A stretch of 64,000 bases of DNA from a virus (IMGVR_UViG_2541047857_000009), one strand, 5' to 3'. Positions 40,159 to 64,000 are shown, numbered from the stretch's first letter. The notes: generated by a model from the sequence alone, not told the origin. Program-made: numbers and translations.

Positions 40159-42741
40159 ATGGCCACTACACCTACTAATCTGCCAGTACCTAGCGAATCC
40201 CCGCGCGACCTGAAATTTAACGCAGGGAAAATTGATGAGTTCGTGACTTCATTCGCTCTTAGTTATATTGACCGCTTTGGAGATGAACACTACACGATTG
40301 AAGGATTAAGATGGCTTGCACAGCGGGCTATAGCTGAATTTGGATGGATACCTATCGGGACATTTCAGAGCGGCGCTGTTATAACTCTACCAAATCAAAT
40401 ATTAAAAGATGAAAATGATGGAGAATACTATAGATGGGATGGGCCGCTTCCTAAAATCGTTTCTCCTAATTCAACACCTGATAGTGCCGGGGGAATAGGT
40501 AAAGGCAAATGGATAGGTGTAGGCGATGCCAGCTTACGTAGTGCTATTACTGAGACAACGAAAAAATACACTACATTTACAGACGCCATCAATTCTACTA
40601 TTGATCTAGTTATCGGGTGCGTTATTACTGGTGGAAGAGTTTCCATCAATGACGGAGGTGGCGGCATATACGTCAGGAACGGAACTGGCACGGCAGGAGA
40701 TACAGATGGAGGAAGTTACTTTGTTACCCCTGATGGGTCAAGGTTTGACTTAGTATCACCTGCAAATATTTCAACTTTTGGCGGCGTTCCTGGGCATGAC
40801 TACCGTGCTGCTCTTGACGGTATAAAATCGTATGTTTCAACAAGAGATAAGGTAATTAGAATTAATTCTAAAACTATTGTTAGTATGGTATTTACACCAG
40901 AGATTCCTGCTGGATACTGGAATGGATTCATACTTGACGTAGATGATAGCGTGACAATTAATACCGCAAGCGATGAAGCTGTCAAATCACCATTGGTAAA
41001 ACTTGTCAGACCTGTAAAATTCTTTTTTACTGGTAATAGCACCAGTTATTTATTACGTTCAAGTGTTGGAATTACAAAAGGTGAATATACACCACTTGTT
41101 CCAGGTACATTACCAACTCCGCCGATCATAAAAAATGCAAACTACACAGATAATAAAACGTTATTTTGTGATATTCAGGATAAAGAAACTCCGGTCTTGA
41201 CGGTTTTTACCTCTGGATGGTCTTTTCTGTCAGGTGTATGGCCTATGGGTGTTGTTGCGGATACACCTGCAGCGTCACTGGCTGGGGATGCAGTATCAAT
41301 TCCAGCCCCTACAGGGAATCTTGTTTTTGCTGCATACAGCAGAGTGAAGCCGTGCTCTGAATATTTCTTGTCGATGTATGAGGGTGACAACACCGGTGGT
41401 CTGCCATGCGTTGTGGTTGAAGCTGAAAGTATGCGTTGGATCTATTACGAGGATCATTTTGGACATGGTAATTTAATTGAGGGAACAATTGGCGGAGCAT
41501 ACTCTACAAAAAGCATTGCATATGCTGGATCTGATACTCATGCTTCACAATGGCTAAAAAACAGTATTGCATCCGTTCGTGTTGATACGCTTAAGTCATT
41601 CACTATCCTGGTTAACGGGATAGAGCGAGTTACAATTCGTCAAACCGGGAGAATCATTGGTCGTGTAGGATTTGGATCACTTGGCGATGGCGGTAAGTAT
41701 ATGTCTGTCTTCTATCCATACATTATCGAAAATCGACAATACCGCTCTGCAAAACCGATAAATATCGCTGTTGTAGGCGATTCAATCACTGATGCCTCTA
41801 TGGGAAATGGATGGGTACAGTTCGCGCAACAAGCACTAGAAGGAACTCACGGCATTCGCGTTGGACGTATGCAGACAATTGCAATAAATGGGTATGCATC
41901 AGGAGATATCGCTAATATATTTAATGTCACATCGTTGGATGATATCGATGTAGTGCTTTTCCAAATCGGAGTGAATGATATTCAAAGGCAATCCGGACGA
42001 GAGGCATTACGAAATAACGTTAAGCAGATGATGCTGACTGCAAATAACCTTGGGATTCCCTGCATTGTATCTTTGCCTACACAGTTCTATACCAGAGATC
42101 AGAGTGTTACGTTAACCGGGGTTGCTGGTTATGGACAGCCTTCGGCAAATTACGAGCTTGGGGCGCTTTACAGGGCGATACTTGCCAGCACAGTAGCTGT
42201 TCGTAATACAGAGGTTAATCAGCCGCTTAATGCCCTGAATACTGGTTCTCTTGACGATCTCGGACCAATCGTAGCCGAATATCTCCTGACAAATCAGGAC
42301 CCTGTTGTTATGGACAACATTCACCCGACCACATACGGAAGAATTCTTCTCGGCTTGTCAAATGCCAGAGCTATTGCATCACATATGTTCGGTAGACGTA
42401 ATGATCCTATAATTAACCACTGGATGCCAGGTGCGTGGGGGGCAAATAACTGGTCAGTAACTTCACTGGTTCGTGCTGCTGTAACATCATATCCCGATGG
42501 TAAAATTGCATTAACTGGCACTATCGCTAACATCGGAACAGGTATAACCGCCGACGGTACGACAGTATGCAACCTTCCGTTGAGCATCTCGCCAGTTAGG
42601 AAAATGGCATTTTCTGTTACAAAACTTGATGCAAGTGGCCTCCCTATTGGACAGGGTAATATTGTTATTGATACAAATGGAACTGTTAAAATATACGGAT
42701 TTCAAACGGGGAATGTGTCACTAGACGGGGTGTTATATTGA
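40159..42741 (+). CDS. tail fibre/tailspike with C-terminal SGNH (GDSL) esterase domain
   Basis: 860 aa; SGNH blocks IAVVGDSITD, QIGVNDI and DNIHPT; low GC. Confidence 0.65.
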   Translation: MATTPTNLPVPSESPRDLKFNAGKIDEFVTSFALSYIDRFGDEHYTIEGLRWLAQRAIAEFGWIPIGTFQSGAVITLPNQILKDENDGEYYRWDGPLPKIVSPNSTPDSAGGIGKGKWIGVGDASLRSAITETTKKYTTFTDAINSTIDLVIGCVITGGRVSINDGGGGIYVRNGTGTAGDTDGGSYFVTPDGSRFDLVSPANISTFGGVPGHDYRAALDGIKSYVSTRDKVIRINSKTIVSMVFTPEIPAGYWNGFILDVDDSVTINTASDEAVKSPLVKLVRPVKFFFTGNSTSYLLRSSVGITKGEYTPLVPGTLPTPPIIKNANYTDNKTLFCDIQDKETPVLTVFTSGWSFLSGVWPMGVVADTPAASLAGDAVSIPAPTGNLVFAAYSRVKPCSEYFLSMYEGDNTGGLPCVVVEAESMRWIYYEDHFGHGNLIEGTIGGAYSTKSIAYAGSDTHASQWLKNSIASVRVDTLKSFTILVNGIERVTIRQTGRIIGRVGFGSLGDGGKYMSVFYPYIIENRQYRSAKPINIAVVGDSITDASMGNGWVQFAQQALEGTHGIRVGRMQTIAINGYASGDIANIFNVTSLDDIDVVLFQIGVNDIQRQSGREALRNNVKQMMLTANNLGIPCIVSLPTQFYTRDQSVTLTGVAGYGQPSANYELGALYRAILASTVAVRNTEVNQPLNALNTGSLDDLGPIVAEYLLTNQDPVVMDNIHPTTYGRILLGLSNARAIASHMFGRRNDPIINHWMPGAWGANNWSVTSLVRAAVTSYPDGKIALTGTIANIGTGITADGTTVCNLPLSISPVRKMAFSVTKLDASGLPIGQGNIVIDTNGTVKIYGFQTGNVSLDGVLY

Positions 42742-44215: not shown

Positions 44216-44587
44216 ATGGAGTCCCAATTCCCCGCAGCAGATTATGCAGTAGAGCGTATCTCACTGGACGGCAGGATCATTACAAGCCCAGCGTCGACAT
44301 ATTTGATGCTGGCAGCAGAGACTATCTGGCGCGCAGGCATTATGAAAGATGCAATGCTTGTCGTGGACAGCGCTGTACATCCCATTGATGGTTCTATTAT
44401 CGTATGCCAGTTCAACGGTGAACTTCGTCTTAAGCGCTTGAGGTTAGCTCCTGCTCGATGCCTTGAAGATCTTAACTATCCAGACCGGCATCAGATGCTG
44501 ACGTCTGAAACTCTCATTATGGGAGTTGTGACATATATCATCAACGATGCCCGTAGTGGTGAGTTTGACGACAGCCCGGTGATCTGA
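44216..44587 (+). CDS. umuD: UmuD'-like protein lacking N-terminal cleavage segment and catalytic Ser
   Basis: Aligns with UmuD from about residue 26; GDSM replaced by ETIW; Lys retained (LKRLRL); GGGAG RBS. Confidence 0.65.
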
Positions 44588-45855
44588 TGTTTGCCCTGGT
44601 TGATGTAAATTCATTTTATGCGAGTTGTGAGACGGTATTCAGGCCTGACCTGAAAGGAAAACCGGTTGTTGTGCTGTCGAATAACGATGGCTGCGTGATT
44701 GCGCGCTCTGCTGAAGCGAAACTGCTCGGCGTCAAAATGGGTGACCCGTACTTCAAACAGAAAGACCTGTTCACGCGGTGCGGAGTTGTCTGCTTCAGCA
44801 GCAATTACGAGCTCTATGCGGACATGTCCAACCGGGTGATGACAACGCTCGAAGAGATGTCGCCGCGCTGCGAAATATACTCAATAGACGAGGCTTTCTG
44901 TGACCTTACCGGGGTTCGTAATTGCAGAGTTCTGGAAGACTTTGGACAGGAACTAAAGGACGCTGTATACCGTAACACGCGGCTTGCTGTCGGCGTTGGG
45001 ATAGGGCAGACAAAGACACTGGCGAAACTGGCAAATCATGCTGCAAAACGATGGCAGCACAAGACAGGTGGAGTTGTTGACCTGTCTAACGTCGAGCGTC
45101 AGCGCAAACTGATGGCAGCACTTCCTGTTGATGAGACATGGGGAGTGGGCCGGCGCATTACCAAAAAGCTCGAGGCTATGGGGATCAAGACGGTTCTCGA
45201 CCTGGCTGATACTGACATACGATTTATTCGTAAACATTTTAATGTGGTTTTGGAAAGGACTGTGCGTGAGCTGCGAGGAGAGCAGTGTCTAGAACTGGAA
45301 GAGTTTGCACCCGTAAAACAAGAGATTGTATGTAGCCGCTCATTCGGCGAACGAGTCACTGAATACGATGCAATGCGGCAGGCTATCTGTAGCTACGCGT
45401 CGCGAGCAGCGGAGAAGTTGCGTGGAGAGCATCAGTATTGCCGGTTTATCTCTGCGTTCGTCAAAACGTCACCATTCGCGCTTAATGAGCCATATTACGG
45501 TAACAGCGCATCGGTGAAGTTGCTGACACCGACGCAAGATAGCCGGGACATCATTGCGGCGGCCACTAAGTGCCTTGATGCTATATGGAAAGATGGTCAC
45601 CGATACCAGAAAGCGGGCGTGATGCTCGGAGACTTCTTCAGTCAGGGCGTCGCACAACTTAACCTGTTTGATGACAATGCACCTCGCGTCGGAAGTGAGA
45701 AGCTGATGGAAGTTCTGGATCAACTCAACACTAAAGGCGGGAGAGGTACGCTGTATTTTGCAGGGCAGGGCATCCAGCAGCAGTGGGCGATGAAACGAGA
45801 AATGCTTTCGCCGCGGTACACAACAAGATTTTCCGATCTGCTGCGCGTTAAGTAA
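44587..45855 (+). CDS. umuC: UmuC, Y-family translesion DNA polymerase subunit
   Basis: 422 aa; [15 protein letters not shown]...SIDEAF Y-family signature; ATGA-coupled to umuD'. Confidence 0.85.
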
Positions 45856-46519
45856 CGAGTTCAATCAACTCCGGCCCCTGATTTTTCACATTACCAACGG
45901 AGCGCGTCACGGCGTGCCAGATAAACTTGTCGGCGGAAACCGCTCCGTCGGCTGCTATCTCTTCCGCTTCTTTCCCGCCTATATCCTGGCGCATCCACTC
46001 ACGGGCCGCTTCAGGTGACAGAACAAGCGGCCGTCTGTCGTGAATGTCGACCAGTCCTTTATCAGCTGCAGATGTCACTATCAGAAAGCCCTCAGCGTCA
46101 TCACCGCGCTCAAATGGCGTGCTGCCTATAGCTGCCATAAAGATTGGCTGACCGTCGGCACGGTGAATGAAGTAGGGCTGTTTCTTGTCGCCTTCCTTTT
46201 TCCATTCGAACCAGCCATCAGCAAAGCAGATCGCCCGGCCATGTTGCCAGAGAGGTTTGAACATTCGGCTGGTGGCTGCGGTTTCGACGCGTGAGTTAAT
46301 CAGCGGCGGTTTATCCCACCACCCGGGAGCGTATCCCCAGAACACTGGATCGAGATGCAGCTGCTCGTCGCGTTCGCTCAGCAGCAGAACTTTGGTGCCT
46401 GGCGCAACGTTGTAGCGTCCAATCGGCTCCGGGTCGTACGCGATGTCGCGATCGGCTTCATCCGCCAGGTAAGCCAGGTATTCTTCACGCGTTTGAGCTT
46501 GTGCAAAACGTCCACACAT
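45848..46519 (-). CDS. SOS response-associated peptidase (SRAP/YedK family)
   Basis: 223 aa starting MCGR with catalytic Cys2; 3' end overlaps umuC by 8 bp. Confidence 0.75.
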
Positions 46520-46681
46520 AGGAACCTCCAGCCAGATGTCAGACTGAAAGTATAGGGTAGGGAGAAAAAACTGGTGCGCACCGAAACTCTATGATTTTGA
46601 AACAGGGGCATGATGATGGAAGTCATCGAGGCGGTAAAGCGGGGTTTTGCGAAACTGGAAGGAGCTACGCAAAACGCAGCT

Positions 46682-46726
46682 GAAAAAAAAGCACGCTTCG
46701 TACAAAGTGTACATTAAAGCGTGCTT
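46682..46726 (-). terminator. terminator downstream of yciB
   Basis: 10-bp stem AAGCACGCTT/AAGCGTGCTT with nested GTACA..TGTAC loop, T-tract on minus strand. Confidence 0.6.
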
Positions 46727-46793
46727 TTAATCATAATTTCATGTCAATATCATAACTAACTAATTGAAATTGATGTGTTTTAAGTGTTATTTA

Positions 46794-47330
46794 TTACTTC
46801 TCTTCCTGCGGCATGTGGCGGTAGATATAGATACCGCTTAACAATGTGAAGATTAAGGTAAGGGCGGTCAGGCCAAAGACTTTAAAGTTGACCCAAATAT
46901 TTTGCGGCAGCCAGAATGCGATGTAGATGTTTGCCAGACCGCAAAGGATAAAGAAAACAGCCCAGGCCAGATTCAGCTTCGACCATACCGATTGCGGCAG
47001 GGTGAGTTCTTTACCCAGCATCCGCTGAATTAGCGGCTTTTTCATCACCCATTGGCTGACTAACAGGGCACCCGCAAACAGGGCATAAATGACAGTAACC
47101 TTCCATTTAATAAACTCATCATTGTGGAAGAACAGCGTCAAGCCACCGAAGACGACCACCAGAACAAAAGTGATCAGGGCCATCTTCTCAACCTTACGAA
47201 AGCGAACCCAGCTATATATAAGCACAATCGCCGTGGCGACGATGAGCGCCGCAGTAGCCGCATAGATGTCATAAATCTTGTAAAACGCGAAAAAGACAAC
47301 CAGCGGTAAAAAATCAAGAAACTGCTTCAT
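46794..47330 (-). CDS. yciB: YciB intracellular septation protein
   Basis: 178 aa, near-identical to E. coli YciB as recalled. Confidence 0.85.
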
Positions 47331-48103: not shown

Positions 48104-48458
48104 GCACTCTCCTTGAGTTTTATGCAGGTGTTAATTAGCGGGCAATTGTACCCTGGTTAAGCCCCGGGTGGCAGCATCAGGTCTTGTATGGAAAAGCATA
48201 TCTTTGTAAAGCGGAGGTAATTGCTGGCCTTCAGGCGTGGGCAAACCGCTGAAAGTGGCGAGCGAGTTAATATTTGCGTAGCGAAATATATAAAAATTGA
48301 TTTAAATCACATTAACCAGGATTTTCAATGCAACTTCTAAATTAATCCAGATCAATAAAGGGTGAATTACCATATGTAATGTGATCTGTGTAGGATCATT
48401 TGTTACCCCAATGTGGGTATATTCGTCACGTTTTTATAACCATAACGACGGAGCGGAT

Positions 48459-49097
48459 ATGAAAAAGTTAACAGTGGCGGCTTTGGCAGTAGCAACTCTT
48501 CTCTCTGGCAGTGCCTTTGCACATGAAGCCGGCGAATTTTTTATGCGTGCAGGTTCTGCAACCGTACGTCCAACAGAAGGTGCTGGTGGTACGTTAGGAA
48601 GTTTGGGTGGATTCAGCGTGACCAATAACACTCAACTGGGCCTGACGTTTACTTATATGGCGACCGACAACATTGGTGTGGAATTACTGGCAGCAACGCC
48701 GTTCCGCCATAAAATCGGCACCCGGGCGACCGGCGATATTGCAACCGTTCATCATCTGCCGCCAACACTGATGGCGCAGTGGTATTTTGGTGATGCCAGC
48801 AGCAAATTCCGTCCTTACGTTGGTGCAGGTATTAACTACACCACCTTCTTTGATAATGGATTTAACGATCATGGCAAAGAGGCGGGGCTTTCCGATCTCA
48901 GTCTGAAAGACTCTTGGGGAGCTGCCGGGCAGGTGGGGGTTGATTATCTGATTAACCGTGACTGGTTGGTTAACATGTCAGTGTGGTACATGGATATCGA
49001 TACCACGGCTAAGTACAAATCTGGTGTTACTACCGTAAAAGACTCGGTACGACTGGATCCGTGGGTGTTTATGTTCTCCGCAGGATATCGTTTTTAA
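48459..49097 (+). CDS. ompW: outer membrane protein W
   Basis: Signal peptide MKKLTVAALAVATLLSGSAFA, beta-barrel body, C-terminal GYRF. Confidence 0.85.
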   Translation: MKKLTVAALAVATLLSGSAFAHEAGEFFMRAGSATVRPTEGAGGTLGSLGGFSVTNNTQLGLTFTYMATDNIGVELLAATPFRHKIGTRATGDIATVHHLPPTLMAQWYFGDASSKFRPYVGAGINYTTFFDNGFNDHGKEAGLSDLSLKDSWGAAGQVGVDYLINRDWLVNMSVWYMDIDTTAKYKSGVTTVKDSVRLDPWVFMFSAGYRF

Positions 49098-49101
49098 TTT
49101 T

Positions 49102-49136
49102 CTCTGCAAAACCTCTGCAAAACCCCTCTGCAAAAC
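49102..49136. repeat. three direct 11-bp repeats CTCTGCAAAAC
   Basis: Copies at 49102, 49113, 49126 between ompW stop and int stop. Confidence 0.6.
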
Positions 49137-49162
49137 TGGTCATCAAATGACCAGTTTTTTCC
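49133..49162 (+). terminator. ompW terminator hairpin overlapping int stop codon (candidate attL core)
   Basis: Palindrome AAACTGGTCAT-CAA-ATGACCAGTTT plus T-tract; int stop codon lies inside it. Confidence 0.6.
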
Positions 49163-50273
49163 ATTCCTTACCGCGTGCGTCGTTGTAAATATCGGTCATT
49201 TTTTGATTCGAATGGCCCAGCAAAATTTTGGTATCAACCCCCTGCTCTCTGAACAATCGCTCTGATAAAGATCTCTGCTCATGGAAAGAGGGTGGGGTGC
49301 CATTAGCACGCCAGTTGTAATCCACAGAATCCCGGGCTTTTTTAAATGCAACGGTTAATGTTGCTGGCTTAACCATCCCGCCGCGCTTAGCTGTCCCTTT
49401 CGCGTGATGGTGGTGCAATAGCCACGGACTAAGAACGCAATCGCGGCAGGATGACACCACATCATCTAGGGTGAGATTTAATTTATCGCAACGCAGAGCC
49501 AGAGGGATGGCAATCCGGGTTCCTGTTTTTTGCTGTTCGACATGAAGATAACCATCCCGGATATCCGAAAATTGCATTTTGCAAATATCTGAAAGGCGCT
49601 GGCCTGTCATCAGTGCCAGCAGCATACCGCGCTGTAAAAAGTAACCATCCTTTTCCGCTGCGTTATAAATCATCATCCACTCATCAAAAGTCAGTCGCTG
49701 TCTTGATATCCGCACCTGCGGTTTTTTTGCCGATTCTGCAGGGTTAAAGCCTGGCGGGACATCGCCCGTTTGCTGAGCTTCCCGGAAAACATCGATCAGT
49801 ACTTTCCTGAAAATTTGTCCCATTCTGTTATGTCCTCTGGCCTTGTACTCTTCCAGTACTGATACCACATCTTTTACGGTTATGGCATCTAACGGTCTGG
49901 TGCCAAAACGTTCATCAAATACCCTGAGAGGGGCCGCTTTCTGTTTCAGCGTGTTGAGTTTGATCTCGCCGTTTTCATATCTTTCCTGTTGAATTTTTCT
50001 GTAATTATTCAGAAAAATGGTAACGGTTGATGAACCGCCGGTGTCACTAATAATTTTCTCCTGCAGACTGAGCATTTGTTCCATTTGCTGCCGGGCAAGA
50101 CGGCTGTTCGCTTCTGCTGCAATAGTTTCTGCCAGTTTCTGGTCAATACTGCCGAGACCGTGATTTTTGCCTGTTATGGGATGCCTGTAACGCCAGTAAA
50201 CTTTGTTATTTCTTTTGTCAAAATACGGAGATAATCCCGGAACATCGGTTTTATATTTTCGCGGGCGCGCCAT
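49143..50273 (-). CDS. int: tyrosine integrase
   Basis: 376 aa; C-terminal catalytic region with LLGHSNQKMTDIY tyrosine motif. Confidence 0.8.
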   Translation of the reverse strand: MARPRKYKTDVPGLSPYFDKRNNKVYWRYRHPITGKNHGLGSIDQKLAETIAAEANSRLARQQMEQMLSLQEKIISDTGGSSTVTIFLNNYRKIQQERYENGEIKLNTLKQKAAPLRVFDERFGTRPLDAITVKDVVSVLEEYKARGHNRMGQIFRKVLIDVFREAQQTGDVPPGFNPAESAKKPQVRISRQRLTFDEWMMIYNAAEKDGYFLQRGMLLALMTGQRLSDICKMQFSDIRDGYLHVEQQKTGTRIAIPLALRCDKLNLTLDDVVSSCRDCVLSPWLLHHHHAKGTAKRGGMVKPATLTVAFKKARDSVDYNWRANGTPPSFHEQRSLSERLFREQGVDTKILLGHSNQKMTDIYNDARGKEWKKLVI

Positions 50274-50499
50274 CTTCCAGTATCCTCTTCAAAGCAGGGT
50301 GATCTGTGGCGATCACCTCCGGCTTGTTTACCATTCCGACAAAGCGAGCTTGCGGATCCACTCGCCAGCGTCTTCCAACTTTTTTGGGGAGAGGAAATAT
50401 CATTCCGGCTTTAGCGTATTTACTTAACGTACTCGGGGTAGGGACCGGTTCACTGAATTCCTCCTTTGCCCACTCAGTGAGCAGAATAAGTCTTGCCAT
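50251..50499 (-). CDS. xis: excisionase-like protein
   Basis: 82-aa ORF overlapping int start, upstream in same operon. Confidence 0.5.
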   Translation of the reverse strand: MARLILLTEWAKEEFSEPVPTPSTLSKYAKAGMIFPLPKKVGRRWRVDPQARFVGMVNKPEVIATDHPALKRILEDGAPAKI

Positions 50500-63950: not shown

Positions 63951-64000
63951 AGGCTTTTTTATTTGTGGTAAATGGGCGGCTGGTGGGTGTTAGGGGCACC

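What the first reader, a model, noticed from the sequence alone, without database searches (positions are those of the whole stretch)
49102..49162. Prophage 2 junction: three 11-bp direct repeats plus a palindromic ompW terminator that contains the integrase stop codon
CTCTGCAAAAC occurs three times directly after the ompW stop, then a 25-bp palindrome doubles as the ompW terminator and as the 3' end of int. This suggests the phage integrates into, and reconstitutes, the ompW terminator. The direct repeats may be integrase arm or accessory-factor sites.
Basis: seen in the sequence. Interest (0 to 1): 0.4.

Follow-up and report, generated by a model that had tools for sequence, protein, structure and literature searches.

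The report
Phage-side arm of ompW prophage junction
The three repeats and the hairpin are real, but they are phage DNA: they are the integrase-proximal arm of the attachment site of the already described E. coli prophage PPompW, which inserts about 120 bases upstream, inside the ompW coding sequence, and brings its own replacement gene end and terminator. This is an ordinary, phage-21-like arrangement.

Summary
CTCTGCAAAAC occurs three times (49102-49136). A perfect hairpin plus T6 (49132-49160) follows, and the stop codon of a lambda-family integrase (49143-50273, minus strand) lies inside it.

- Prophage-free strains (K-12, CFT073) have neither the repeats nor this hairpin. Their ompW terminator is an unrelated sequence.
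- Their ompW already diverges from the window at 49007.
- The duplicated att is the published 121-bp PPompW att (48979-49099). Its second copy sits next to yciE about 47 kb away in ATCC 11775.
- Two secondary-site insertions place the crossover at CAGTG (48979-48983).

So the phage integrates inside ompW. It supplies the last ~38 codons, the stop codon, the repeats and the terminator.

The repeats are most likely P' arm-type integrase-binding sites.
- A fourth copy lies about 127 bp into the other arm, followed by an IHF consensus.
- Integrases 65-69% identical, from other genera, keep three copies with the same spacing.
- The phage 21 genome record annotates the homologous triple repeat (YYTTCCCCAAAA) as attP subsites.

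This is a new member of a known kind and of low interest. One side lead: the phage-borne ompW end swaps a hypervariable segment, probably OmpW's last surface loop.

The parts
48459..49097 (+). Hybrid ompW coding sequence. The 5' part is chromosomal and the last ~38 codons (from about 48985) are phage-borne.
   Evidence: ORF and Pfam OmpW match, E 1.6e-80. The protein is identical to K-12 OmpW (PDB 2MHL/2F1T) except for the patch NYKLGGAQQH -> KYKSGVTTVK. The DNA diverges from K-12 and CFT073 from 49007 onwards.
48979..49099 (+). The 121-bp imperfectly duplicated att of prophage PPompW (attL copy).
   Evidence: It maps onto the repeat_region 'duplication due to insertion of PPompW' at 91-211 of LC567822.1. 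The 121-bp attL/R was confirmed by attP sequencing in Nakamura et al. 2021 (PMC8112680). The second copy lies next to yciE in ATCC 11775, HH97 and PPompW_132418.
48979..48985 (.). Inferred crossover (overlap) region, CAGTGTG, at the left edge of the att.
   Evidence: This is where attP/attB homology begins. Secondary-site insertions in E. albertii rlmC (L015) and in an apparent fimbrial-usher gene, by my reading of the translated flank (L065), switch from host to phage sequence at CCAGT / CGGTC. In the B2 host ATCC 11775, attL carries the phage-type bases and attR the native CFT073-type bases at 48983 and 48998. The exact 7 bp are inferred.
49007..49052 (+). Hypervariable segment of the phage-borne ompW end, between the last two barrel strands of OmpW.
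   Evidence: Alleles are 43-70% identical here, against 85-100% in the flanking segments. The protein alleles are listed. The extracellular position is inferred from outer-membrane barrel topology and was not tested.
49102..49112 (+). Repeat 1, CTCTGCAAAAC: putative P' arm-type integrase-binding site.
   Evidence: conserved in relatives
49113..49123 (+). Repeat 2, CTCTGCAAAAC: putative P' arm-type integrase-binding site.
   Evidence: conserved in relatives
49126..49136 (+). Repeat 3, CTCTGCAAAAC: putative P' arm-type site. Its AAAAC also forms the A-tract and first stem base of the hairpin, and hence the U-tract of the int-sense terminator.
49132..49160 (.). Phage-borne bidirectional hairpin terminator: stem 49136-49143 / 49147-49154, loop CAA, A4 before and T6 after.
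   Evidence: -17 kcal/mol, z -5.4. About -14.4 and -14.9 kcal/mol in the two senses. Absent from empty sites. Kept in the Kluyvera and Raoultella relatives with a changed loop. Keeps pairing only in the int sense in L019.
49143..50273 (-). Lambda-family tyrosine integrase with an arm-binding N-terminal domain. Its stop codon (49143-49145) lies in the hairpin.
   Evidence: Pfam PF09003 (E 7e-22) and PF00589 (E 1.3e-16). Aligns with lambda Int structures 1Z1G/5J0N over residues 14-375, E ~1e-55, with the catalytic R, K, H, R, H, Y positions aligned and identical.
50251..50499 (-). Excisionase, overlapping the start of int.
   Evidence: Pfam PF07825, E 1.3e-7. Annotated as excisionase in RefSeq and as xisE in LC567822.1.

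Best explanation
Positions 49102-49162 are the integrase-proximal (P') arm of the attachment site of the lambdoid prophage PPompW, seen here as attL.

Shown:
- The phage attP runs, in window orientation: A/T-rich P arm, crossover at CAGTGTG, about 114 bp that mimic the 3' end of ompW, the three repeats, the hairpin, then the int stop codon.
- Integration happens inside ompW (window 48979-48985).
- The lysogen therefore expresses a hybrid ompW whose last ~38 codons, stop codon and terminator come from the phage.
- The native 3' end and native terminator are left as a pseudogene next to yciE at attR.

Inferred by homology with lambda and phage 21:
- The three 11-bp repeats, spaced 11 and 13 bp (about one helical turn), are arm-type sites bound by the N-terminal domain of the integrase.
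- Together with a single copy about 127 bp into the P arm and an adjacent IHF site, they would let integrase bridge arm and core DNA in the recombination complex.

Inferred from sequence:
- The hairpin is an intrinsic terminator. It ends int transcription and, read the other way with its T6 run, ends the hybrid ompW transcript.
For: Phage origin
- The repeats and the hairpin are absent from empty sites, whose downstream sequence is unrelated.
- They are contiguous with the P arm in intact attP contigs L028, L094, L100 and L067.
- 1729 of 5426 complete E. coli genomes carry this junction.

Junction inside ompW
- A 126-nt ompW remnant lies beside yciE in ATCC 11775 and HH97.
- The 121-bp att is published and annotated.
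- Secondary-site junctions fall at CCAGT / CGGTC.

Arm-site reading
- The integrase has the lambda arm-binding domain and aligns full-length with lambda Int.
- A fourth copy, (T/C)(T/C)CTGCAAAAC, sits at -131..-123 in the P arm in the same orientation. It is conserved in two P-arm lineages that differ around it.
- An IHF consensus, AATCAATCAGTTA, follows it at -104.
- Integrases 65-69% identical in Kluyvera, Raoultella and an unnamed Enterobacteriaceae genome keep three YYC(T/A)GCAAAAC copies with identical spacing, while the first two bases vary. One of these lies next to a gene that is not ompW.
- Relatives at 45-51% identity (phage 1H12, Klebsiella phage ST13-OXA48phi12.4, Providencia phage PSTCR8lys) have three copies of TTCCCCAAAAY in the same place.
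- The phage 21 record annotates that triple repeat as 'attP ... 3 subsites P1P2P3; consensus YYTTCCCCAAAA'. It lies between an icd 3' mimic with its terminator and the int stop codon, and the P arm holds one copy plus an IHF consensus.
- In lambda, P'1-P'3 likewise abut the int stop codon. I located those sites from memory on the sequence read.

Terminator reading
- The fold statistics.
- The stem is conserved with a changed loop in the Raoultella relative L018; the Kluyvera relative L017 keeps the whole hairpin unchanged.
- In L019 pairing is kept through G-U pairs only in the int sense (-10.7 against -0.8 kcal/mol).
Against: - There are no binding or recombination data for this integrase. 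The arm-site assignment rests on comparison only.
- The repeats lie +120 to +155 bp from the inferred crossover, farther than lambda's P' sites (about +55 to +85). This is comparable with phage 21, where the gene mimic is also interposed.
- Only one P-arm copy was found, whereas lambda has two.
- Two relatives (L016, L020) with similar N-terminal domains lack the repeats next to int. There a 306-aa gene lies directly beyond int, so the att may simply be farther away.
- Half of the hairpin also encodes the integrase C-terminus (L-V-I-stop), so part of its conservation could be a coding constraint.
- The consensus terminator scan did not flag the hairpin.
- The far end could not be checked in the window's own genome, because it lies beyond position 64000. 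ATCC 11775, which is 100% identical over 48950-49350, was used instead.
Confidence: 0.8

Rival explanations
1. One reading: the hairpin is the native ompW terminator, the phage integrates into it and rebuilds it, and the crossover core lies in or beside the palindrome.
For: The hairpin sits immediately downstream of ompW and looks like a canonical terminator. The integrase gene ends inside it.
Against: Empty sites in K-12 and CFT073 have a different terminator and share no sequence with the window beyond TAATT at 49099. Divergence from the native gene begins at 49007. The duplicated att is 48979-49099. The hairpin is contiguous with phage DNA in intact attP contigs and travels with the phage into the rlmC and usher-gene sites.
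Confidence: 0.02
2. The repeats are neutral products of replication slippage in a non-coding spacer and have no function.
For: Copy number varies: strain 61_150228 has four copies. Short tandem repeats do arise by slippage.
Against: Three copies with the same 11/13-bp spacing persist across genera at 65-69% integrase identity, while the first two bases of each unit drift. A separate copy occurs at a conserved position in the other arm. A homologous triple repeat is annotated as attP subsites in phage 21.
Confidence: 0.05
3. The repeats are protein-binding sites, but for excisionase or a host factor (IHF or Fis) rather than for the integrase N-terminal domain.
For: Lambda Xis also binds tandem direct repeats. 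An excisionase gene is present. No binding data exist for this system.
Against: In lambda the Xis sites lie in the P arm next to the core, not beside int (established knowledge). The motif occurs on both arms, which is the hallmark of arm-type Int sites. It does not match the IHF consensus, whereas a separate good IHF match exists at -104. The motif changes as the integrase diverges: CTGCAAAAC at 62-100% N-domain identity, CCCCAAAAY in Providencia phage PSTCR8lys at 46% N-domain identity, and a third motif (by my recollection AGTCACTAT) in lambda at 38%. The same CCCCAAAAY triple repeat also occurs in phages 1H12, 21 and Klebsiella ST13-OXA48phi12.4. The N-domain was compared only for PSTCR8lys; 1H12 and the Klebsiella phage are 45-51% identical to the window integrase over the whole protein.
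Confidence: 0.08
4. The repeats plus the terminator act at the RNA level, as a phage-supplied ompW 3' UTR. Examples would be an Hfq-binding A-rich module or a 3'-UTR-derived small RNA.
For: In a lysogen the ompW transcript would carry three CAAAAC units followed by a hairpin and a U6 tail. That resembles the 3' module of Hfq-dependent RNAs (a general resemblance from my own knowledge).
Against: No Rfam family matches. The same repeats occur in the P arm and in relatives that are not next to ompW (L019; phage 21 family), where no such transcript would be made. In L019 the hairpin does not fold in this sense.
Confidence: 0.04

Closest known systems
PPompW prophages of E. coli (Nakamura et al. 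2021, PLoS Pathog, PMC8112680; GenBank LC567818-LC567841)
   Same: It is the same element. The integrase is 99.7-100% identical, the DNA is 99.4% identical over 48990-49500, and it carries the same 121-bp att within ompW, confirmed there by sequencing excised attP circles.
   Different: That paper and the GenBank records define only the 121-bp duplication. The term 'arm-type' does not occur in the paper. The three repeats and the hairpin just outside the duplication are not annotated.
Phage 21 (and e14) attP at icd
   Same: A lambda-family integrase targets an internal site of a host gene. The attP carries a replacement 3' end of that gene. Three tandem direct repeats lie next to the int stop codon, annotated as attP subsites P1P2P3 with consensus YYTTCCCCAAAA. 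The P arm has one copy at about -130, followed by an IHF consensus (also phage 1H12). The general principle is stated in PMC10111431. From memory, Wang et al. 1997 (J Bacteriol 179:5705, PMID 9294425) described 'repeated dodecamers' as arm recognition sites; that paper could not be opened.
   Different: - The target is ompW rather than icd.
- The integrase of phage 1H12, used here as the phage-21-type representative, is only ~51% identical.
- The motif is CTGCAAAAC rather than CCCCAAAAC.
- The order is mimic, repeats, terminator/int stop, whereas phage 21 has mimic, terminator, repeats, int stop.
- The phage 21 record describes its icd mimic as 99% identical in protein, whereas the ompW mimic rewrites a 12-residue patch.
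Bacteriophage lambda attP, P' arm (H', P'1, P'2, P'3)
   Same: The integrase is homologous over its full length, with an arm-binding domain. Three tandem arm-type sites about one helical turn apart lie between the core and the int stop, with P'3 overlapping the int stop codon (site positions located from memory on the sequence read). The xis-int gene order is the same. The orientation relative to int is the same, and lambda P'2 (CAGTCAAAAT) shares the CAAAA element.
   Different: Lambda integrates between genes with a 15-bp identity and carries no gene mimic. Its P' sites are at about +55 to +85 rather than +120 to +155. Lambda's int terminator (tI/sib) lies beyond attP and is separated from int in the prophage (established knowledge), whereas here the hairpin stays attached to int in both states.

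Membership tests
Lambda-family (heterobivalent) tyrosine integrase | N-terminal arm-type DNA-binding domain | tested here: met
   Pfam PF09003 Arm-DNA-bind_1, residues 2-71, E 7.1e-22, 77.7 bits against a cut-off of 22.
Lambda-family (heterobivalent) tyrosine integrase | Catalytic domain with the R-K-H-R-H-Y active-site residues | tested here: met
   PF00589, E 1.3e-16. In the alignment with lambda Int (5J0N/1Z1G) the motifs GQR, KTG, FHExRSL and LLGH...Y are aligned and identical. The residue numbering (R212, K235, H308, R311, H333, Y342) is from memory.
Lambda-family (heterobivalent) tyrosine integrase | Adjacent excisionase gene upstream of, and overlapping, int | tested here: met
   ORF 50251-50499 (minus strand) overlaps the int start. 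Pfam PF07825 Exc, E 1.3e-7.
Arm-type integrase-binding sites of a complex attP | The same short motif is repeated on both arms of attP, outside the core | tested here: met
   CTGCAAAAC lies at -131..-123 (P arm) and at +122, +133 and +146 (P' arm), all in one orientation, in intact attP contigs. It is conserved in diverged P arms.
Arm-type integrase-binding sites of a complex attP | The motif and its arrangement are conserved among related integrases, and the motif changes as the integrase diverges | tested here: met
   Three copies with 11/13-bp spacing at 65-69% integrase identity. The motif changes to TTCCCCAAAAY at 45-51% identity. N-domain identities were compared. The sample is small, about eight lineages.
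Arm-type integrase-binding sites of a complex attP | Physical binding by the integrase N-terminal domain, and a requirement for recombination | not testable with these tools
   This needs gel-shift or footprinting experiments and attP mutagenesis.
Arm-type integrase-binding sites of a complex attP | IHF (bending) site between arm site and core | tested here: inconclusive
   P arm: a perfect WATCAANNNNTTR match at -104 in one lineage and one mismatch in the other. P' arm: no match found between the crossover and the repeats.
Gene-end-replacing integration (phage 21 / icd type) | attP carries a copy of the target gene's 3' end, so the gene stays intact in the lysogen while the native end is displaced to the other junction | tested here: met
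   Intact hybrid ompW ORF. Native 126-nt remnant beside yciE. The mimic is contiguous with the P arm in attP contigs.
Intrinsic (Rho-independent) terminator | G+C-containing stem-loop followed directly by a U-run | tested here: met
   An 8-bp core stem (12 bp with A-U pairs) plus U6 in the ompW sense, and U4 in the int sense. -17 kcal/mol, z -5.4. It was not listed by the consensus scan.
Intrinsic (Rho-independent) terminator | Transcripts actually end there | not testable with these tools
   This needs 3'-end mapping (Term-seq or 3' RACE) in a lysogen.

The most novel reading that the evidence does not exclude
The ompW 3' end carried by the phage may be more than a neutral patch. It rewrites a 12-17-residue segment, probably the last surface loop of OmpW: native NYKLGGAQQHDS becomes KYKSGVTTVKDS here, and other PPompW phages carry KYKSDGRKLAKGSYSDN or SYKSNGTPVKDA. 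These alleles are 43-70% identical in DNA, inside flanks that are 85-100% identical. OmpW is the receptor for colicin S4 and for some phages (PMC2649078 and PMC10132071, titles and abstracts seen). The swap could therefore be a form of lysogenic conversion that changes the receptor surface in about a third of sequenced E. coli (1729 of 5426 genomes).
Probability: 0.3. Interest if true: 0.55.

Novelty: new member of a known kind. Interest (0 to 1): 0.2.

Why it matters
It matters little for basic biology. The result places a very common E. coli prophage junction (about a third of complete genomes) within the well-understood lambda / phage 21 scheme. It also corrects where the crossover lies.

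It has some practical use.
- It gives the likely arm-site motif (YYCTGCAAAAC) and the full extent of attP, about -135 to +160 around 48982, for an integrase that could serve as an orthogonal recombination tool.
- It warns annotators that ompW in PPompW lysogens is a host/phage hybrid with a phage-specified loop and terminator.

The loop swap is the only part that could lead somewhere new.

Tried and rejected
- **Far end in the window.** The att sequences occur only once in the window, so the prophage runs past position 64000.
- **Strain 20A24.** This is the closest match to the window's upstream island, and I looked there for attR. It has no ompW prophage. I used ATCC 11775 (attL 100% identical), HH97 and PPompW_132418 instead.
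- **First crossover mapping.** From two differences between attL and attR in ATCC 11775, I first placed the crossover in GATACCAC (48999-49006). CFT073 showed that those attR bases are the native B2 alleles. That reverses the inference and points to the left edge, which the two secondary-site junctions then confirmed. Import of the prophage with flanking DNA by homologous recombination could also produce the base pattern, so I rest the mapping on the secondary sites.
- **HH97.** Its two 121-bp copies are identical and K-12-like, so it gives no information on the crossover.
- **Rfam** search of 48300-49400 found nothing.
- **Literature** searches for the motif and for arm-type sites of icd phages found nothing relevant. 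Wang et al. 1997 could not be opened.
- **Relatives L016 and L020** have a 306-aa gene directly after int and no repeats within 1.2 kb, so they give no information.
- **IMG/VR loci.** Most are cut exactly at the int stop codon and were unusable.
- **Terminator scan.** The consensus scan missed the hairpin, which I attribute to its stem-extension rule.

Full report
**1. Observation**

The sequence reads TAA (ompW stop, 49095-49097), then TTTT, CTCTGCAAAAC (49102-12), CTCTGCAAAAC (49113-23), CC, CTCTGCAAAAC (49126-36), TGGTCAT-CAA-ATGACCAG, and TTTTTT.
- Tandem Repeats Finder reports three copies of period 11, score 52, or period 13, score 54.
- The only other copy in the 64-kb window is a lone one at 41745, which is at chance level.
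- The hairpin (stem 49136-43 / 49147-54, extendable to 49132-58 through A-T pairs, T6 at 49155-60) folds at -17 kcal/mol, z = -5.4.
- A 376-aa ORF on the minus strand (49143-50273) ends with TGA at 49145-49143, inside the hairpin.

The consensus terminator scan did not list the hairpin. I attribute this to its counting the first four T as stem.

**2. What the neighbours are**

- The minus-strand ORF is a full-length homologue of lambda integrase. Pfam finds the arm-DNA-binding domain PF09003 (E 7e-22) and the catalytic domain PF00589.
- It aligns with lambda Int structures over residues 14-375 (E ~1e-55), with the catalytic motifs identical.
- An excisionase (PF07825) overlaps its start.
- Upstream lie yciB, yciC and ompW.

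**3. Comparison with empty sites**

Of 5426 complete E. coli genomes, 1729 carry this ompW-integrase junction. In the prophage-free genomes listed, the match covers only the first 150 query bases (to just past the ompW stop) at about 86% identity.
- Alignment with K-12 and CFT073 shows near identity up to 49006.
- A 46-nt block of heavy divergence follows (49007-49052).
- Near identity resumes through the stop codon to TAATT (49099).
- Beyond that there is no similarity.
- The native downstream sequence has its own hairpin, GACCCCGTAATATACGGGGTC, and contains no CTGCAAAAC.

The repeats and the hairpin are therefore not chromosomal.

**4. The far end**

The att sequences occur only once in the window, so the far end lies beyond position 64000. 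ATCC 11775 is 100% identical over 48950-49350.
- There the prophage ends about 47 kb away with an annotated 126-nt 'OmpW family ... missing N-terminus' pseudogene beside yciE.
- That copy carries the native-type variable block and the native terminator. HH97 and PPompW_132418 show the same.
- The duplicated segment corresponds to window 48979-49099. This is exactly the 121-bp repeat_region annotated in LC567822.1.
- It is also the 121-bp attL/R that Nakamura et al. 2021 verified by sequencing excised attP circles (PMC8112680).

The element is therefore the published PPompW prophage.

**5. Where the crossover is**

- Contigs L028, L094, L100 and L067 hold an uninterrupted attP. Its order is: A/T-rich P arm...CTACCAGTGTGGTACATGG..., the ompW-like segment with the window's variable block, the three repeats, the hairpin, int.
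- Homology between attP and ompW starts at CAGT (48979).
- An integrase 100% identical to the window's, with an identical P' arm and ompW mimic, is also found inserted in rlmC of E. albertii. There host sequence changes to phage sequence at CTG|CCAGT|GTGG, and the empty rlmC reads CTGCCAGTTAAAC.
- It is also found in what I read from the translated flank as a fimbrial-usher gene, with the switch at GACGGTC|TGGTAC (L065).
- In the B2 host ATCC 11775, attL has phage-type bases and attR has native B2 bases at 48983 and 48998.

All of this places strand exchange at about 48979-48985, at the left edge of the 121 bp. This is about 120-155 bp upstream of the repeats, and it lies inside the ompW reading frame. 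The remaining ~114 bp are a phage-borne replacement for the ompW 3' end. PMC10111431 describes the same principle for icd and tRNA targets.

**6. The repeats**

- *Both arms.* In intact attP the 9-mer CTGCAAAAC occurs at -131..-123 in the P arm and at +122, +133 and +146 in the P' arm, all in the same orientation.
- *P-arm conservation.* The P-arm copy is conserved (TTCTGCAAAAC / TCCTGCAAAAC) in two P-arm lineages that differ at many neighbouring positions. An IHF consensus follows it at -104 (AATCAATCAGTTA; one mismatch in the other lineage).
- *Other genera.* Integrases 65-69% identical in Kluyvera (L017), Raoultella (L018) and an unnamed Enterobacteriaceae genome (L019, next to a gene that is not ompW) keep three YYC(T/A)GCAAAAC units with the same 11/13 spacing directly before the int stop.
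- *More distant relatives.* At 45-51% identity, phage 1H12, Klebsiella phage ST13-OXA48phi12.4 and Providencia phage PSTCR8lys have three TTCCCCAAAAY units in the same place.
- *Phage 21.* The genome record OL657228.1 annotates this triple repeat as 'integration site attP consists of 3 subsites P1P2P3; consensus YYTTCCCCAAAA'. It lies between an icd 3' pseudogene with its terminator and the integrase stop. The phage 21 P arm has one copy at about -130, followed by AATCAAACGGTTG.
- *Lambda.* The three P' arm sites likewise abut the int stop codon. I placed those sites from memory on the sequence read.

The motif shifts with divergence of the N-terminal domain.
- CTGCAAAAC at 62-100% N-domain identity.
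- CCCCAAAAY in PSTCR8lys, the only phage of that group whose N-domain was compared, at 46%.
- In lambda (38%) the motif, by my recollection, is AGTCACTAT.

I conclude, by homology and not by experiment, that the repeats are the P' arm-type integrase sites. Copy number can vary: strain 61_150228 has four.

**7. The hairpin**

- It is phage DNA (section 3).
- It is unchanged in the Kluyvera relative (L017) and has a changed loop (CAA to TAT) but the same stem in the Raoultella relative (L018).
- In L019 it keeps pairing only in the int sense, through G-U pairs (-10.7 against -0.8 kcal/mol). It is absent in PSTCR8lys.
- Its 5' half in the int sense encodes L-V-I-stop, so coding constraint explains part of the conservation.

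The most likely reading is an int 3' terminator whose U-run is the AAAAC of repeat 3. In ompW-targeting phages it is a perfect palindrome followed by T6, so it would also terminate the hybrid ompW transcript. Transcript ends were not testable here.

**8.

The prophage junction and the arm-site idea are supported. 'Integrates into and reconstitutes the ompW terminator' is not supported. The native terminator is a different sequence, displaced to attR, and the crossover is inside the gene.

**9. Novelty**

The prophage, its target and its 121-bp att are published. The attP layout is that of phage 21 and lambda. What I did not find described is the CTGCAAAAC motif, the placement of the crossover at the left edge, and the shared terminator. 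This is a new member of a known kind, and the interest is low.

**10. Side lead**

The phage-borne ompW end changes OmpW only in the patch between the last two barrel strands. This is probably the last extracellular loop, inferred from barrel topology. That patch exists in at least three phage alleles, 43-70% identical in DNA, inside flanks that are 85-100% identical. OmpW is a colicin S4 and phage receptor. Whether the swap has a phenotype is untested.

Noticed in passing
window 49007-49052; L009 and L010 (same region): The phage-borne ompW 3' end differs from the native gene almost only in a 46-nt block between the last two barrel strands. At least three phage alleles exist (KYKSGVTTVKDS, KYKSDGRKLAKGSYSDN, SYKSNGTPVKDA, against native NYKLGGAQQHDS). 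They are 43-70% identical in DNA, while the flanks are 85-100% identical. This may be a receptor-loop swap on lysogeny.
   Followed up: partly
L007 (E. coli 61_150228), about 1350-1405: This strain has four copies of CTCTGCAAAAC (three tandem, CC, then one) instead of three, with an identical integrase protein. The arm-repeat copy number is therefore polymorphic.
   Followed up: no
L015 2400-2600 (E. albertii NBRC 107761); L065 (IMG/VR contig 643886067_000001): An integrase 100% identical to the window's, with an identical P' arm and ompW 3' mimic, sits at secondary sites. One is inside rlmC in E. albertii and the other is inside what looks like a fimbrial-usher gene. The junctions fall at CCAGT / CGGTC. 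These insertions should truncate the target genes, because the mimic fits only ompW.
   Followed up: partly
window 49056-49078: The 23-mer GATCCGTGGGTGTTTATGTTCTC (DPWVFMFS) is identical at the nucleotide level in the E. coli native copies and in the window-type, TW11681, Kluyvera and Raoultella junction copies. The ECE218 allele has one change (GACCCG), and the Kluyvera and Raoultella copies may themselves be phage-borne. Neighbouring codons show synonymous changes. It could be a codon constraint or an extra recombination or accessory site. This remains unexplained.
   Followed up: no
L008 / L011 (E. coli HH97): In this lysogen both 121-bp att copies are identical and K-12-like. This phage therefore carries (or has acquired, for example by homologous exchange between the two copies) the native ompW allele.
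   Followed up: no
window 1-46600: The region upstream of yciB looks like another prophage or island. It ends with a Y-family DNA polymerase, an S24 peptidase and an SOS-response-associated peptidase gene (44587-46519), where yciA is expected. Only 4 of 5426 E. coli genomes match 44500-47000 over at least 80% of its length. The best is strain 20A24, which lacks the ompW prophage.
   Followed up: partly
L016 2390-3310; L020 (same position): In Kluyvera georgiana and Enterobacter bugandensis relatives, a 306-aa ORF of unknown function lies convergent with, and directly after, the integrase gene, where the arm repeats would be expected. It may be a cargo gene inserted between int and att.
   Followed up: no
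L017 about 2300-2325: The Kluyvera MAG integrase has an in-frame stop seven codons before its normal end (…SRGK*WKKLVI). This is either a pseudogene or a sequencing error.
   Followed up: no
L001 1649-1700 (K-12 ompW-yciE spacer): The native hairpin downstream of ompW has its T-run only on the yciE-sense strand (GTTTTTGTG). In the ompW sense it is followed by AATAAGG. The native ompW therefore lacks a canonical U-tail, which the phage-supplied terminator provides.
   Followed up: no
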